Positions 6,001 to 15,000 of a stretch of 64,000 bases of DNA are shown in pieces. The position numbers are program-made. The stretch is taken from positions 1,054,001 through 1,118,000 of the forward strand of contig NW_026781909.1 of assembly GCF_031769215.1 (NCBI RefSeq), in the 5' to 3' direction. Position 1 is the first letter of the stretch. Every line of letters begins with the position of its first letter. This DNA comes from Ylistrum balloti. Lineage: Eukaryota.

Positions 6001-9000
6001 CGTTGTAGTCTGGTTACCACTTGCTTCGTGTGGCGTCGAATTTCCAGTGAAGAATGCGATGAACTCTACAATGTAAGACATGCTAGAACAGTAATTATTT
6101 TCCCGAGTATTCGTCAGAGAAAAAGGATTGATATAACTTAAAACACAACTTCATTTATTAAGAATATTCAGAGGAATATTTGTTACGTTCAAATGATGTT
6201 TCTAAGATTAAATTCCATGTATGCGTGCTTACCATTTAAATCGATTAACCCATCACTATTTTTGTCCGCTGTTTTTATCAATTCGTTTACTTCCTCCTCT
6301 GTCATTGGTTCACCGAGATGCTTCAAGGCGATCCGCAATTCTTTAGGATCAAGAAATCCATTTCCGTCTCTATCAAACGTTTTAAAAGCCCAGATCAACT
6401 CTGCGATTTCGTCAGTGGTCTCTTTTCTATTTTTCATCAACGTAACAAATTCCGGAAATTCTAGACTCCCATTTCCTGTAAATAGTTAGGTAATGGCATT
6501 GTGAGTTGTGATTACACCATAAAAGTCGCGTGAACAGACAACATTTTGAACTTTGACATGAATGTTTTTCCTCAATAAGAATTTATTTTTTGAACGAACA
6601 TCATTGCACGATGATATGATGATATGAAACTTTCATAAAACTTTTAAATACAGTGGATTGCCAGATTTTTAACGGAAGCGGTACATAGCGTCACTTTGGC
6701 GTCATTGACGACGCCATGTTAATAAAATAGATCCAAGAATAAATAATGATATTGAAGTGCTTACTTACCATGTGCAAATACCTGTATAGCATTACATCTA
6801 GATATCTTACATGTCTCTTAATACTTACATTTATATAAAACTATGGATGTACCAGAAAGACAAGATGTAGAAAACATCGAGCATTTACAAGCGGTAAAAA
6901 GTAATGAAAAAGCCGTATCTAATTACAAGCGCAATCGTCATGCGGCGTAAACGCACATTGATTAATAGCCACAAATCACCTAACGGAGCTATACCTAAAT
7001 TGTGAACCACTACAAGTTGACTTTCCGGAAAAAAGGAGTAGATGCATTAAGGGTCAATTTTGGCCCCAGCATAGATTTTCTTAATTTTTATATCATGCAA
7101 ACATGGACATATGACATTGATAAAAAAACAAGTTTTCAATAATTCTGACAATGCGTTGCCTAGCAACGGGCCTGGAAACCAACCTACTCTTTACCGTCTA
7201 TTTGCACATTTTAGTGATATTTCACTGTTTTTTTTTATTATTTGGTGAAAATATTTAATCAATTTTTACATATCAATGGTATGATTTAAAAATCATATCA
7301 TATTTGTGATCAACCATCATATATTACATGTTTAAGATTTCCTAGCAACACAATAGCAACCAAACTCTCTCCATAGCAACGGATTGTAATAAATACAATA
7401 ATGGACACAGAAAATTGATGATAATACTCAAGGGCTGTTTAGATTATGATACATCTTAAAAATGTAAATATGATGATACAATAGAGCATATAGGTGGTAT
7501 TCCACAGTAACCATGTCTTACCATAGCAACTAAATATTTCACCATAGCAACAGTACATGCAATAATCAGTACATCAATTTGTCAATACTTCCGTACACGG
7601 TTATCTTTATATTCTTGGTTAATTTGAAAAGGATATGAAATCAAACATGTTACAGTTAATGATTCTTACAAAAGTTAAAAGTTATTTCAAATAAACATTA
7701 TGCACTAACAAAATACATTGTCATTCGAGATTAAAGCCAATTCCTCAGTCGATCAAGTGACCATCGTGCATTTGTAATTACATTTTTGGAGATTCCGAAA
7801 TTTATATGTAATTTACATGGCTACATCGGTAAAGCTGTGCTGTTTTATTCCTCCGTGTTACCTTCATCATCACTCTCATCAATACTGATTGGGTCTGGTG
7901 TATAACTGGCATCTTGTAAATATTGTGTCCAGTCCTTACTAAAGTCAAAGGACTTGTCTAAATGACGTGCAAATCCCATATACCATAAGATGGATGCAAC
8001 ATGGGAGCAAGTCCCAACCACCCTCGCCCCAGCACGGCATGTACAGTACCATCCTTGCACATTACAATCATCAAATGATACCCACAATTGGTAAAGTTTT
8101 GAGGAAAAATGTCGGCTCTGTATCTTGGCATTGATCAGATTAGCATCTACTTTACAGATAGATACTTCATATCCTCCCGTTTCGCTCATATGTTCCTGTG
8201 TGTAGGACCGTGCCAGTTTGAGCTGATACACTCCCAGTGTCAAATTCCGCAGGTCTTCTTCTGTCAGAACAGGAAATATGATATCAGTTGTGGTCTCCAT
8301 CTTCTGCCACTTACTAGGTCGATTGAAAAGGCCTTCTCGTTCAATTCTCTCCCAAAGAGAATTCTGCTTCCGTGACAAATGCAACATTTTCGATCCTAGC
8401 AGTTGATCTTGCTCTGCATCCCCCGTGCTTATTGGTGTACCGAACTTGTTGAAGATTGCACACACAATCCTGACAATATCGCCTATGTATGGAATCTGTG
8501 AGTTTGGCAACACACGATCCAAATATTTCCAGGTTTTTAACCGTCCATTCACAGCCTCAACGACCCATCTGAAAAATAGTAAATAGATGCATTTTGAATG
8601 TGAATAAATGCAGTATTCAAATGCATATGATGGTAACTATATCAAATAAATTTTGTTTTCAATTTCGACATCTTCTAAATGGACAGGTTTATGCAGTTCA
8701 ACTTATAAAATCGAAAGTATCTAATTCTCACTGGGAATTACCTTTAACCATTTTAATGATATATTAATACAAATAAGTTATAAATATGTTGTAAAAGCAA
8801 TTGGTAAAGTTAGTAAAATGTTACTCAGAACAAAGAGAGACCTTACCTTATTTTAGTAACAAGCCTGGAAGCGTTGCTTTCTCCGGTAGTGTGCTGTTTC
8901 CTTTGCTTGGAAAAAGAAGGCATCTCTGTTTGTATTCCTAGCTGTTGTAGGAGGTCCATGGAATCTCTAAAGCCTCTGTCAACCACAAACACATCATTTT

Positions 9001-12000: not shown

Positions 12001-15000
12001 GGAGATTTTGTTAGTAATATAAATCAAAACCAACACACTTCGGATGTACACTGATTTTATTATGGGTGTGTGAATTGACACTTTAGTTTATATCTCGTAT
12101 ATAGGAACACTTTCTCATTTTTATATGTTAGTGTATGTTTTGAAAACAACACTGTAGCAAATACAGTTTTGCCATTATGTTTTTTCTGACGATAAATCCC
12201 TGCATTTTGTTTGGTTGCAAAATTCTATTTTTAGACGCAGACTCAGACAACGTTATTATGGAAAATACCGTTTACAAACAAAAAAAGAAAAGGTTTTATT
12301 TTATTTTTTATACTTGTTATTGTATTTTTACTTACTGCATACTTATCAAAACACTAGCAATATCTACAATGACTATTTTTTCGAAGTCAGATCTGACGTC
12401 TGCTCATATGCACAAACGTAAACAAATCGCGACAATGTCGCGAATACACAACATGGATATCTTCTACATAATATTGTTACATACCTGTTAAAGAAGTAGA
12501 CAACTTCTACAAGATGTGCAGATGTGTTGACAGCTCTTCTACGTATACATACTTCAAATGTAGGCTGAAACTTGCAAGATCTTCTGTACGAGTTTAGACT
12601 AACGTACAATGTAGCGCATTAGACTCGGGCCTAGGAGATTGCAAAATCTAGGAGTTGTTACCATGGATATTTTTGTCATTTTTCAAAATACATTTTTTTT
12701 CATTATTATTATCTAATTTTATTAACAAACATAAGTCAAGTCATTTTTCATGTTTTTGTCTTTTATTTCAGCATCCATTTACTTCCGCAATCTTGTAGTC
12801 GGTCTCGACGCTAACGTTACGCTGGGCAACGTCAAAATCTCACCAAAATCGTGAAATGTGGTTACAAATTCAGAAGATATTTGTTATTTTAAATACCTCC
12901 CCAGGCATGTACCAAAAAAATATTTGAGCATCGCAAACATAATGTGGAAATTGTTCTCATTGATAAATATAAAATTGGTACACCCTTGGGGAGGTAGTTA
13001 ATTTTTCGTTCAAAGTCATAAAATATCGAAAAAAATCGTGACTTTTTGTAAACGTGACGTTTTCCCGCGAAATTTGTGACGTCATCACACGCGTTATGAA
13101 CCTATTTTTATCTGCATTTCAACTGATAAGTTGTTAAATAACACAAATGGGTACATGATTAAAGAATTTTCTAACAATTAAAAAAAAGATTTTTTGAGGC
13201 CAATTTTGAGCCAAAGTGCATCTACTCCTTTGTAAAAATGGTGTATAGCAACCATGAGGACAGAGGGGCGGGGCTCTGATGGGTGAAAAGGTATAGGCAA
13301 GGACAGGGGAACGAATTTTGTAAAAATGGTGTATAGCAACCATGAGGGCAGTGAGGCGGGACAAATGGCATACATCTATATTCATTTAAAGTGTGCTATT
13401 CCTTTGTCATTTTGGATTAAATTATGCTACTTTTGGCATATTCAAGGATTTTTCTTTCTGATTAGATTTTAGTCAAAGCTAAATATCAAGAAAACAGTGA
13501 TTACTAACTCCAATGAGATAATTATGATCTTATAACGAAATTGCTATCATGTTAAAAATGGATTGTTTTCGTGTACGAACAAACTAACTGACACGTTAAA
13601 ATGTTATCAGTTAAGCGTCTCAACGCAACGAGACATTTACCACGCCAATTGTCACTAACGAGATCACTAACGCATTTTAATGGAAATTTGTTTATATATT
13701 TCCATACCGAAATGATATTGATAAGTGTTATACAAGTGCATTTCAAATCATTCACGTGTGCTTGAAGACTGTTGAAATCATCCAATATTAGATATGAAAT
13801 TTATTGGATTGTGGAGAAGTACAACACGCCATTTATATTATGACATTCATTTAGAACAGTTTGGATTTTCCTGTGTCGTCTTTAGGTTTCAATAATTTAA
13901 CAATCATAACTATAAGTAAGAAAAGAATGAGATGATTGGTGTAGGTACATTCATCATCTGTCGCTGTTGTATCTTAATAAATATTTTGAAGTTACTTATC
14001 ACTTTTGTACAATTTTTCATGTCTTTATATATCATGTAATAAATGAAACCTACATAATGATATATTTTCTATGTTTAAATGATAACTATACCTTCCAATT
14101 CTTGCTCCGCGTCCTCTGATTCCTGCACTTTTTGCTCCTACATAAACATAAAAACACGCATCAACATTTTTTTTTTCTAAACCTAATATTTGTTTAAACT
14201 ATCAATACCATGCCCAAACACAGTCAATGAAATCCTTTTCAGAGGTAGATTATTTTCTTTTGACCAGAAGATCTGTTTGAACTTTCGATACCAGGCCCAG
14301 ATTGTATACTGATAACGTTGTTAGTATCCTCGGGATTATTGCTACTTTTGAGTTTTAACCCCCGGTGAAATAGGTACATAATAATGTACTTTGGAAAAGA
14401 CGAATTAAGTAAAACATGATTTATTTGATGACTGATAAGATTCAAACTGTTGATAAAACCGTGAACGTTTGGATTAGGACCAAAGTCAGGACTTGTAGTA
14501 TTGGGTCGTCCTGATAGAGGTGAAGGTCAATACCGGAAAAACAAATCTTGGCTCAAACTCAAAAATAACGAGGACAAAGTATGAAAAAACATTGTTAAGT
14601 AATCACAACGTTAATGCCCAAAATTTCAATTTGTAATTGCTTATTTAATAAAAAGAAACGTATTTGAAAAAAAAGAAAGAAAAAAAAATTGTCTGGTTTA
14701 TATAATAAATATTTGGTTAATGTAAAATGTGAGTTTGTCAGGATCATATGATATTGGTATTAAGTTTACGTTATCAATATTGATGGTCTGGTCTATATAA
14801 TAAAAATATATATGTGTAAAGTATGTCAACAAATTCATCAAAAACATACCAACATGTGAACATAATCATAATCCAAATTCATATTCGATAAAACTAGGGC
14901 AAAATATAAACGAAAGAAACATGAACACTGAGATTCCTGAAAAGTGCAAGGGGAATAAGACAACCAATATGTTACAAAAGAATAAGCGTCCTCTGCTTTA

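What the first reader, a model, noticed from the sequence alone, without database searches (positions are those of the whole stretch)
7029..13231. Apparently intact transposon with no target-site duplication (AAA|TTT) and a DDE-SWIM fusion transposase
The 34-bp imperfect TIRs are flanked by ggaaaAAA on the left and TTTgtaaa on the right, with no duplicated target. Insertion into AAA|TTT without a TSD is the described hallmark of Spy elements, whereas PIF/Harbinger (3-bp) and ISL2EU (AT) elements duplicate their target. The 690-aa protein has ISL2EU/Harbinger-like DDE_Tnp_4 motifs plus a fused C-terminal SWIM finger, and I see no Myb/SANT or YqaJ partner ORF. The combination may be a poorly described lineage. 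The open, spliceable frame suggests recent activity. An alternative reading is AGG termini with a decayed TTAA target (Kolobok-like). A 30-bp direct repeat just outside the right end (13229-13258 and 13317-13346) may belong to an older element that was the target.
Basis: partly seen in the sequence, partly recalled or inferred. Interest (0 to 1): 0.65.

Follow-up and report, generated by a model that had tools for sequence, protein, structure and literature searches.

The report
Spy-type transposon in a scallop
This is an intact-looking copy of a Spy transposon, a known kind of jumping gene that slips in between AAA and TTT without duplicating its target, sitting in a scallop genome; it is ordinary for its family, although its enzyme carries zinc-finger modules that the papers on Spy do not mention.

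Summary
A 6,194-bp element (7035-13228) has a 12-nt perfect terminal inverted repeat, 25 of 31 matching further in. It lies between host ...AAAAAA and TTTG..., with no target-site duplication under either choice of boundary. On the minus strand it carries one two-exon gene of 690 codons with a DDE_Tnp_4 core and a C-terminal CxCx9CxH (SWIM-type) motif. None of the 47 other reading frames matches any Pfam family.

The gene matches a RefSeq protein of the scallop Ylistrum balloti at 688 of 690 residues. It belongs to a large family of ~700-aa proteins in bivalves, Hymenoptera, beetles, mites and a flea. This matches the published host range of Spy elements, and the arthropod members show the published Spy D(79-80)D spacing.

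I file it as a Spy-group element of the PHIS superfamily, a new member of a known kind. The DDE-SWIM combination is the family norm and not a new fusion: all 43 named relatives have it. The three Spy papers I searched never mention it.

The Kolobok, ISL2EU and PIF/Harbinger readings fail on the flanks and on coding content. Copy number, empty sites, Repbase/Dfam identity and current mobility could not be checked.

The parts
7032..7034 (.). Host AAA half of the AAA|TTT target (last three of six flanking A's)
   Evidence: Sequence read; flank printed. That it is host DNA is inferred by symmetry with the TTT side and from the Spy literature. No empty site was available.
7035..13228 (-). Whole element, 6,194 bp; the gene reads on the minus strand
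   Evidence: Only Spy-like TIR pair in the window; longest inverted repeat of the region. blastn of the element against the rest of the window gave 0 hits.
7035..7065 (+). Left TIR: 12 nt perfect (7035-7046), 25 of 31 matching; starts GGA
7161..7551 (+). Subterminal cluster of six TAGCAAC motifs, all in the same orientation (possible transposase-binding repeats; inference)
   Evidence: One search found 20 YAGCAAC in the window against 11.1 expected, six of them here. Direct-repeat family D2.
7845..8568 (-). Exon B (residues 451-690) plus stop TAA at 7845-7847: end of the DDE core with catalytic E454 (8556-8558), a helical linker, the SWIM module and an acidic tail
   Evidence: Structure model pLDDT 84.6.
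8001..8045 (-). SWIM-type CxCx9CxH motif, residues 625-639
   Evidence: coordinates. Invariant C, C, G, C, H in 45 sequences. Pfam SWIM E 0.013, 15.5 bits, below the 19.6 cut-off. Best PDB fold matches are the two ZSWIM8 chains, E 9.6e-3 and 2.9e-2.
8569..8846 (-). Intron, 278 nt, GT..AG, phase 2, inside the DDE domain just before R-x3-E
   Evidence: Splice sites printed. Junction confirmed by the RefSeq protein P0001. If the intron is retained, the frame stops at once (TAA at 8843-8845).
8847..10195 (-). Exon A (residues 1-450): two Cys-rich modules, an HTH-like region, and the DDE core with D323 (9227-9229) and D406 (8978-8980)
   Evidence: Structure model pLDDT 84.6. Fold matches to Mos1, Tn5, piggyBac and ISCth4 transposases and to retroviral integrases, 7 of them at E<=1e-3.
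10034..10171 (-). N-terminal Cys module 1 (C9, C12, C51, C54)
   Evidence: Each conserved in at least 90% of 33 bivalve, arthropod and other sequences. No Pfam match at E<=10.
9755..9874 (-). N-terminal Cys module 2 (C108, C111, C144, H147; C2CH pattern)
   Evidence: C144 and H147 invariant, C108 and C111 at least 90% conserved. No THAP or other Pfam match at E<=10.
9296..9415 (-). HTH_Tnp_4-like region (residues 261-300)
   Evidence: Window E 0.12. 18 of 28 rows of alignment A1 match at E<=0.1, best 8.5e-6. Helical in the model.
10196..13216 (-). About 3 kb of non-coding 5' part between the right TIR and the ATG; no recognisable second gene
   Evidence: 0 of 47 frames with a Pfam hit. No tRNA. 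One sub-threshold Rfam match only.
13198..13228 (-). Right TIR (perfect 12 nt at 13217-13228)
13229..13231 (.). Host TTT half of the target
   Evidence: It is the first three bases of a 44-nt host repeat that recurs without the element at 13317.
13229..13360 (+). Flanking host direct repeat, two copies (13229-13272 and 13317-13360), 93% identical; not part of the element

Best explanation
[quoted passage not shown] It lies in the genome of a scallop, Ylistrum balloti or a very close relative.

Its single gene encodes a 690-aa DDE transposase with five parts: two N-terminal Cys-rich modules and an HTH-like region (presumed to bind the ends), an RNase-H-like core with D323, D406 and E454, a helical linker, and a C-terminal SWIM-type zinc module.

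The proposed mechanism has three steps. The enzyme binds the GGA-initiated inverted repeats. It cuts the element out. It then joins the two 3' ends to directly opposed, non-staggered positions between AAA and TTT, so no target bases are duplicated.

Shown here: the anatomy, the flanks, the fold class and the family relationship. Taken from the literature: TSD-free insertion at AAATTT, shown by empty sites (PMC4122938) and by cell assays with cgSpy and cvSpy (PMC11304231). Inferred: that this copy is autonomous and can still move, which domain binds what, and blunt cutting. The SWIM module and the Cys modules are family-wide features, not a new fusion.
For: Structure: perfect 12-nt TIR beginning GGA, 25 of 31 matching; the only such pair in the window. 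AAA|TTT flanks with no TSD; that flank occurs at only 0.14% of window positions. The TTT belongs to a host repeat found again 88 bp away without the element.

Coding: one gene with DDE_Tnp_4 split over two exons. No second gene: 0 of 47 frames. D(82)D(47)E spacing. DDE transposase/integrase fold, 7 PDB matches at E<=1e-3.

Family: 505 relatives at E<=1e-3 among 5,734 candidates, the named ones all bivalves. A profile search found 1,420 50%-identity representatives at E<=1e-30. A clade without bivalve names proved to be Hymenoptera (including Solenopsis invicta and Camponotus floridanus), beetles, mites and a flea, the taxa in which Spy was described. The window's exons align co-linearly with the Solenopsis protein: 35% over 349 aa (E 3e-60) and 28% over 242 aa (E 7e-28). 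Of the 17 named arthropod relatives, 14 could be measured: 13 have D(79)D and one D(80)D, the published Spy spacing. Four of the 26 named bivalve relatives (Magallana, two Saccostrea, one Pinctada) have D(80)D.

Literature: the oyster Spy-1/2_CGi were first filed as ISL2EU in Repbase. A bivalve TE curation exempts 'the SPY group' from the TSD rule.
Against: - Only one copy could be examined, so a decayed TSD cannot be excluded by counting.
- No true empty site was found. The left flank does not align with the sequence before the second repeat copy (score 14 against a shuffle mean of 15.6).
- The published terminal consensus is GGANNNNG. Here the eighth base is A.
- The D-D spacing is 82, two more than the published 79-80.
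- Spy genes are described as a single ORF, but this one has an intron.
- PMC4122938 says most Spy transposases appear to lack zinc fingers. This family has three Cys/His modules.
- At 6,194 bp it exceeds the 1,165-5,910 bp range given for intact Spy.
- No tree with labelled Spy, ISL2EU, Harbinger, Pangu or Nuwa references could be built. The link to Spy therefore rests on hallmarks and host taxa.
- The HTH_Tnp_4 and SWIM matches of the window protein are both below Pfam's cut-offs.
Confidence: 0.85

Rival explanations
1. It is an ISL2EU element, the sister group of Spy, whose 2-bp AT target duplication has decayed.
For: Oyster Spy families were first catalogued as ISL2EU. ISL2EU TIRs also start with GG and its target is A|AT|T. 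ISL2EU transposases carry an N-terminal zinc finger (THAP), and this protein has a conserved C2CH-pattern module.
Against: The bases abutting the ends are AA and TT, not AT and AT. No YqaJ-type second ORF: 0 of 47 frames. No THAP match at E<=10. The relatives come from Spy host species and show Spy D-D spacing.
Confidence: 0.05
2. It is a former Spy insertion that no longer moves. It may be a fossil kept open by chance, or a transposase gene taken over by the host, since RefSeq lists it as an ordinary gene with an intron.
For: RefSeq annotates a 690-aa 'uncharacterized protein' at 688 of 690 identity. Relatives at 88% (Mizuhopecten) and 92% over 44% (Pecten) exist in other scallop genera. There is only one copy in 64 kb. 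The TIRs are imperfect beyond 12 nt.
Against: Both TIRs and the hallmark flanks are still in place. All catalytic and zinc-ligand residues are kept. The family is multi-copy in many bivalves: cluster sizes reach 223 member sequences. Short perfect TIRs of 10-12 bp are normal for Spy.
Confidence: 0.1
3. It is a PIF/Harbinger element (3-bp TWA duplication), a Kolobok element (TTAA), or a Mutator-like element, which is the classical SWIM-bearing transposase.
For: DDE_Tnp_4 is the Pfam model shared with PIF/Harbinger. SWIM fingers are known from MULE transposases (recalled, not tested).
Against: No TWA, TTAA or 9-10-bp repeat at the ends. No Myb/SANT ORF. No MULE or Kolobok-type domain among the Pfam matches.
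Confidence: 0.02

Closest known systems
Spy elements of the PHIS superfamily (Han et al. 2014, PMC4122938), including oyster Spy-1/2_CGi and the experimentally active cgSpy and cvSpy (PMC11304231)
   Same: AAA|TTT insertion without a TSD; TIR starting GGA; a short perfect TIR; one transposase gene of about 700 aa; an HTH-like region before a DDE core; D-E spacing of 47; invertebrate hosts, including bivalves.
   Different: D-D spacing is 82 rather than 79-80. The eighth terminal base is A, not G. The gene has a 278-nt intron. At 6.2 kb it is slightly above the published size range. The host order Pectinida is not named in the main texts I read. Three Cys/His modules, including a SWIM-type one, are not described in those papers.
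ISL2EU elements
   Same: Sister group of DDE_Tnp_4-type transposases; GG termini; A/T-rich target; an N-terminal zinc-binding module.
   Different: ISL2EU duplicates AT, carries a second YqaJ-exonuclease ORF, and has a recognisable THAP domain. None of the three is found here.
PIF/Harbinger elements and host HARBI1-type genes
   Same: Same Pfam catalytic model (DDE_Tnp_4) and HTH_Tnp_4-like region.
   Different: PIF/Harbinger makes 3-bp TWA duplications and needs a Myb/SANT partner protein. Here there is neither, and the enzyme is about twice as long, with extra zinc modules.
SWIM-bearing proteins (MULE/FAR1-type transposases, recalled; ZSWIM8, PDB 9rwz)
   Same: A CxCxnCxH motif C-terminal to the catalytic part. 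In the model the CxC sits at the end of a beta-sheet and the CxH at the start of a helix. ZSWIM8 chains are the top two PDB fold matches.
   Different: The catalytic domain is of the IS5/PIF type, not the MULE type. The Pfam SWIM score is below the cut-off. The fold match is weak (E 9.6e-3, TM 0.30 over the whole exon model).

Membership tests
Spy (PHIS superfamily) | Insertion between AAA and TTT with no target-site duplication | tested here: met
   Flanks are ...AAAAAA | element | TTTG..., with no direct repeat under either boundary. One copy only.
Spy (PHIS superfamily) | AAA and TTT are host bases: an uninterrupted AAATTT at empty sites | tested here: inconclusive
   The TTT is the start of a 44-nt host repeat present again at 13317 without the element. 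The left flank finds no counterpart there. No real empty site could be fetched.
Spy (PHIS superfamily) | TIR terminus 5'-GGANNNNG-3' (described as 'relatively well conserved') | tested here: inconclusive
   Both ends start GGA, but the eighth base is A, not G (consensus).
Spy (PHIS superfamily) | A single transposase gene with no second ORF | tested here: met
   One 690-codon gene. 0 of 47 other frames of at least 35 aa have a Pfam match. The gene has one intron, unlike the published 'single long ORF'.
Spy (PHIS superfamily) | D(79-80)D(44-62)E spacing | tested here: inconclusive
   The window has D(82)D(47)E, so the second spacing is in range and the first is two over. Of 125 relatives measured, the D-D spacing is 82 in 73, 80 in 15 and 79 in 12. 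Of the 14 named arthropod relatives that could be measured, 13 have 79 and one has 80; four of the 26 named bivalve relatives have 80.
Spy (PHIS superfamily) | HTH motif N-terminal to the DDE core | tested here: inconclusive
   HTH_Tnp_4 E 0.12 in the window protein, below the cut-off. 18 of 28 rows of A1 match at E<=0.1, best 8.5e-6. The region is helical in the model.
Spy (PHIS superfamily) | Transposase groups with reference Spy sequences, apart from ISL2EU, PIF/Harbinger, Pangu and Nuwa | not testable with these tools
   No Repbase or Dfam references are held. As a proxy, relatives come from published Spy hosts (Solenopsis invicta, Camponotus floridanus, oysters, mites, a flea). In an unrooted tree, bivalve and arthropod rows are split by one branch.
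Spy (PHIS superfamily) | Fifteen Spy-specific conserved residues of the DDE domain (Fig. 4A of PMC4122938) | not testable with these tools
   Only the list of letters is in the text; the figure is not held. The near-invariant residues of A1 can be read in the same order, but that is my own mapping and not a test.
ISL2EU | 2-bp AT duplication (target A|AT|T) | tested here: not met
   The abutting bases are AA and TT.
ISL2EU | Second ORF with a YqaJ exonuclease domain | tested here: not met
   0 of 47 frames.
ISL2EU | THAP domain at the N-terminus of the transposase | tested here: not met
   No THAP match at E<=10 for residues 1-160. A conserved C2CH-pattern module exists, so a remote THAP-like fold is not excluded.
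PIF/Harbinger | 3-bp TWA duplication and a Myb/SANT partner ORF | tested here: not met
Kolobok | TTAA duplication and a Kolobok-type transposase | tested here: not met
   No TTAA at the ends. The enzyme is DDE_Tnp_4.
SWIM zinc finger (PF04434) | CxCxnCxH signature | tested here: met
   Residues 625-639. Invariant in 45 of 45 aligned sequences. Present in 43 of 43 named relatives.
SWIM zinc finger (PF04434) | Score above Pfam's gathering cut-off (19.6 bits) | tested here: not met
   13.1 bits and 15.5 bits on a 90-aa piece. 7 of 28 rows of A1 match at E<=0.1, best 9e-4.
SWIM zinc finger (PF04434) | SWIM-like fold | tested here: inconclusive
   The model has four strands, then a helix, with CxC at the end of the last strand and CxH at the start of the helix. 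The top two PDB matches are ZSWIM8 chains, E 9.6e-3 and 2.9e-2, and no match reaches E<=1e-3.

The most novel reading that the evidence does not exclude
Spy transposases as a class are three-zinc-module enzymes: an N-terminal C2C2 module, a C2CH module, and an invariant C-terminal SWIM finger. On this reading, these built-in modules let Spy work without the Myb-like partner that PIF/Harbinger needs, and they position the two active sites for non-staggered joining at AAA|TTT.

A side claim concerns the bivalve branch. It carries an old intron just before the catalytic E. That intron hides the branch from ORF-based mining, so Spy would be far commoner in molluscs than the published '4 elements in 4 species'.
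Probability: 0.15. Interest if true: 0.55.

Novelty: new member of a known kind. Interest (0 to 1): 0.3.

Why it matters
Spy elements are the only eukaryotic cut-and-paste transposons described as leaving no target duplication, and cgSpy is being developed as a gene-transfer tool (PMC11304231). An intact-looking scallop copy adds a bivalve order to the known hosts.

It also draws attention to two family-wide features that are absent from the Spy papers I could search. One is the conserved SWIM-type finger together with two N-terminal Cys modules. The other is a conserved intron in the bivalve branch. Both are cheap to test and bear on how the enzyme picks its target and on how such elements are mined. 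For the scallop genome itself the finding is routine repeat annotation.

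Tried and rejected
- Other copies in the window. blastn of the element against the rest of the window gave 0 hits. The third TIR-like match at 17862-17876 has no partner.
- Paralogous empty site. The left flank does not align with the sequence upstream of the second copy of the flanking repeat. 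No inverted or direct repeats link the two flanks.
- Nested elements or RNA genes inside the 3-kb 5' part. No tRNA, and only a sub-threshold mir-297 match (28.5 bits against a gathering score of 90).
- Solved relatives by sequence. None: 4 matches, all at E>=0.15.
- N-terminal zinc modules. No Pfam family at E<=10, and the fold search of exon A returned only catalytic-core matches.
- Atlas look-up with exon B. It gave Rotifera and Mollusca clusters at 0.90-0.92, which is only a lead.
I did not repeat it.
- Literature. 'SWIM' occurs 0 times in PMC4122938, PMC4482050 and PMC11304231. Two searches combining SWIM with Spy, PHIS, Harbinger and ISL2EU terms listed nothing relevant, judging by titles and abstract starts only.
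- Kolobok, MULE and PIF/Harbinger readings are rejected on the flanks and domains.

Full report
**What is there**

The window is AT-rich animal DNA, 26-40% G+C in 2-kb blocks. The longest inverted repeat in 6500-13800 has arms at 7032-7087 and 13176-13231, 56 nt and 73% complementary. Read from 7035 and from the complement of 13228, the first 12 nt are identical and 25 of 31 match without gaps.

The 12-nt terminus plus the adjoining AAA occurs exactly twice in 64 kb, once at each end on opposite strands. Chance expectation for matches with up to 2 mismatches is 0.20, and 0 of 100 shuffles give 3. Among all AAAGGA (29) and TCCTTT (24) sites 80-9000 bp apart, this is the only pair with at least 11 of 14 complementary terminal bases. 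The element is therefore 7035-13228, 6,194 bp.

**Flanks**

The left flank ends in six A's and the right flank starts TTTG. No direct repeat abuts the ends, whether AAA/TTT are counted as host or as element. AAA|TTT is found at 87 of 64,000 positions, 0.14%.

The TTT is the first three bases of a 44-nt sequence that recurs 88 bp downstream at 93% identity without the element. So the TTT is host DNA. The left flank has no counterpart before that second copy: score 14 against a shuffle mean of 15.6. This is only half of an empty-site test.

**The gene**

The minus strand has two long open frames. They are joined by a GT..AG intron of 278 nt at 8569-8846.
- Exon A is 8847-10195 and encodes residues 1-450.
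- Exon B is 7848-8568 and encodes residues 451-690.
- The stop codon is at 7845-7847.

Every search, alignment and fold used each exon on its own by window reference, and the joined 690-aa model was left out. The junction is nevertheless confirmed by a database protein. P0001, 'uncharacterized protein LOC132565127 [Ylistrum balloti]', matches exon A at 449 of 450 residues over its residues 1-450. It matches exon B at 239 of 240 over its residues 451-690. The window thus comes from this scallop or a very close relative. It holds either an allele or a second copy that differs at two residues.

**Domains**

Pfam DDE_Tnp_4 is split over the exons. Exon A matches profile positions 1-117 (E 3.5e-6). 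Exon B matches positions 117-158 (E 3.9e-5). The catalytic residues are D323, D406 and E454, giving D(82)D(47)E.

The exon A model (pLDDT 84.6) finds Mos1, Tn5, piggyBac and ISCth4 transposases and retroviral integrases as its best PDB matches, 7 of them at E<=1e-3.

Exon B carries CxCx9CxH at residues 625-639. Pfam SWIM scores below its cut-off of 19.6 bits: 13.1 bits at E 0.074, and 15.5 bits at E 0.013 on a 90-aa piece. The exon B model (pLDDT 84.6) has four strands followed by a helix, with the CxC at the end of the last strand and the CxH at the start of the helix. Its two best PDB matches are the two ZSWIM8 chains (E 9.6e-3 and 2.9e-2), and nothing reaches E<=1e-3. I read this as a SWIM-type finger supported by motif and context, not by a significant profile score.

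The N-terminus has two further conserved Cys/His sets:
- C9, C12, C51 and C54.
- C108, C111, C144 and H147.

Each residue is conserved in at least 90% of 33 sequences, and C144 and H147 are invariant. Neither set has a Pfam match, THAP included, at E<=10.

None of the 47 other frames of at least 35 aa inside the element matches a Pfam family at E<=0.01. There is therefore no Myb/SANT or YqaJ partner.

**The family**

Exon A finds 505 proteins at E<=1e-3 among 5,734 candidates. Among the 120 listed, the named ones are all bivalves: scallops, mussels, oysters, pearl oysters and clams. Many are 680-715 aa long. The closest are Mizuhopecten (88%), a partial Pecten protein (92% over 44%) and another Pecten protein (66%).

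A profile of 26 such proteins plus the two window exons (A1) finds 8,362 representatives at 50% identity at E<=1e-3. Of these, 1,420 are at E<=1e-30. The best 150 mostly match along nearly the whole profile.

Of the 265 proteins held at that point, 163 reach the C-terminal region, and 144 of those carry the CxCxnCxH motif in their last 160 residues. Among the 50% representatives the figure is 89 of 103.

A FastTree of 157 near-full-length rows has two parts: a 42-row clade without bivalve names, and a 115-row part in which the named bivalves form a 63-row clade. A search with one member of the unnamed clade returned Hymenoptera, beetles, house-dust mites and the cat flea. The Hymenoptera include Venturia, Cotesia, Solenopsis invicta, Camponotus floridanus, Cyphomyrmex, Osmia and Phymastichus.

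The window's exons align co-linearly with the Solenopsis protein. Exon A gives 35% identity over 349 aa (E 3e-60). Exon B gives 28% over 242 aa (E 7e-28), and that alignment includes the SWIM motif and the acidic tail.

In a tree of 26 named bivalve and 17 named arthropod proteins, the two groups are separated by a single branch (support 100). All 43 have CxCx9CxH.

**Comparison with the literature**

PMC4122938 (Results and Discussion read) defines Spy by these features:
- insertion between AAA and TTT without a TSD, confirmed by paralogous and orthologous empty sites;
- a terminal GGANNNNG;
- one ORF;
- D(79-80)D(44-62)E spacing;
- an N-terminal HTH.

Its hosts include Solenopsis invicta, Camponotus floridanus, mites, Hydra, a rotifer and the oyster Crassostrea gigas. 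The oyster families had been filed in Repbase as ISL2EU-4/-6_CGi.

PMC11304231 (passages only) reports ~700-aa transposases and activity of cgSpy and cvSpy in human cells. It reports integration at AAATTT/AAWTT without a TSD, and only '4 Spy transposons in 4 species' of Mollusca.

PMC4482050 (abstract, section 5 and passages) gives the contrasting features of ISL2EU: an AT duplication with target A|AT|T, and THAP and YqaJ domains. For PIF/Harbinger it gives a TWA duplication and a Myb/SANT partner.

The window element meets the Spy flank rule, the GGA start and the single-gene rule. It departs in small ways:
- The eighth terminal base is A.
- The D-D spacing is 82.

Of the 17 named arthropod relatives, 14 could be measured: 13 have a D-D spacing of 79 and one has 80. 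Four of the 26 named bivalve relatives (Magallana, two Saccostrea, one Pinctada) have 80. The family therefore spans the published values continuously, from 78 to 82 in 113 of 125 measured proteins.

I therefore file the element under Spy with confidence 0.85. A tree with labelled Repbase references could not be built.

**What is not in those papers**

'SWIM' occurs 0 times in the three Spy/PHIS papers. PMC4122938 states that most Spy transposases do not appear to contain a zinc finger. [quoted passage not shown] Two full-text searches combining SWIM with Spy, PHIS, Harbinger and ISL2EU terms listed nothing relevant by title or abstract start. UniRef's automatic names already call two family members 'SWIM-type domain-containing protein'. 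The feature is therefore visible in databases but not discussed in the papers I could search. Supplementary tables, which I could not open, may hold domain notes.

**The intron**

Of the 120 proteins listed, 104 have the conserved ...SRLVTK motif.
- In 62 of them the sequence continues into the R-W-x-x-E motif.
- In 42 homology stops right after TK. In 38 of these the next residue is V, and most tails are 0-37 residues long.

A V in that position is what read-through into an intron beginning GT would give. I cannot see their DNA, so this is an inference. In the arthropod set, 90 of 94 proteins with the motif run through. The other 4 differ only by substitutions.

An intron at or within two codons of the window's position thus seems common in the bivalve branch and absent from the arthropod branch. 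If the window's intron is retained, the frame stops immediately. The product would be a 450-aa protein without E454 and without the SWIM module. Whether such a product exists or matters is speculation. Mining that requires one long ORF would miss such copies, which may explain the low published count for molluscs. This too is an inference.

**How it most likely works**

Established for the family: TSD-free integration at AAATTT, from empty sites (PMC4122938) and cell assays (PMC11304231).

Shown here: the ends, the flanks, one gene, the DDE fold, and conserved zinc-ligand sets.

Inferred:
- The N-terminal modules and the HTH-like region bind the TIRs. They may also bind the six TAGCAAC repeats at 7161-7551.
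- The DDE core cuts both ends.
- The two 3' ends attack directly opposed phosphates between AAA and TTT.
- The SWIM module contributes DNA or subunit contacts.

**What stayed unchecked**

- Other copies, empty sites and insertion polymorphism in scallop genomes.
- Repbase and Dfam identity.
- The supplements of the Spy papers.

Noticed in passing
window 7161-7551; 13246-13252 and 13334-13340: Six TAGCAAC motifs, all on the + strand, cluster in the left subterminal 400 bp of the element. The same 7-mer (as ATAGCAAC) also sits in both copies of the host repeat just outside the right end. There are no inverted copies inside the element. This could be chance, or the target could be a remnant of a related element.
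   Followed up: partly
proteins (bivalve relatives), position equivalent to window 8846-8850: 42 of 104 bivalve relatives lose homology right after the ...TK motif, 38 of them with V next, as expected for read-through into a GT intron. None of the 94 arthropod relatives with the motif is truncated there. This suggests an old intron specific to the bivalve branch.
   Followed up: partly
window 9800-9802 and 8042-8044 (codons 132 and 626): The window copy differs from the RefSeq protein P0001 at two residues, Q/R at 132 and T/S at 626; the second lies inside the CxC of the SWIM motif. It may be an allele or a second copy; this is unresolved.
   Followed up: no
window 13040-13100: By eye, a TTTCCCGCG and a TGACGTCA lie close to the right end, which is upstream of the gene. 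They resemble E2F and CRE sites as I recall them. No tool was run on this.
   Followed up: no
window 11905-11995 (minus strand): By eye, a stretch resembles a tRNA-derived SINE head. ARAGORN found no tRNA, and Rfam gave no tRNA match at E<=0.1.
   Followed up: partly
window 12889-13001: A 37-nt inverted repeat, 78% complementary, with a 39-nt loop, lies inside the element near its right end (I2).
   Followed up: no
window 3920-4633 and 22514-23381: Two minisatellite-like arrays show up as long repetitive open frames on both strands.
   Followed up: no
window 28407-28835 (-), 37217-37609 (-), 42331-42825 (+): Host gene exons: two EF-hand pair (calmodulin-like) exons, E 1.3e-20 and 3e-17, and a CFAP107 exon, E 2e-37. 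The transposon lies more than 15 kb from the nearest of them.
   Followed up: partly
window 32001-34000: A block with strong strand asymmetry: GC skew -0.263, AT skew +0.301, G+C 0.398.
   Followed up: no
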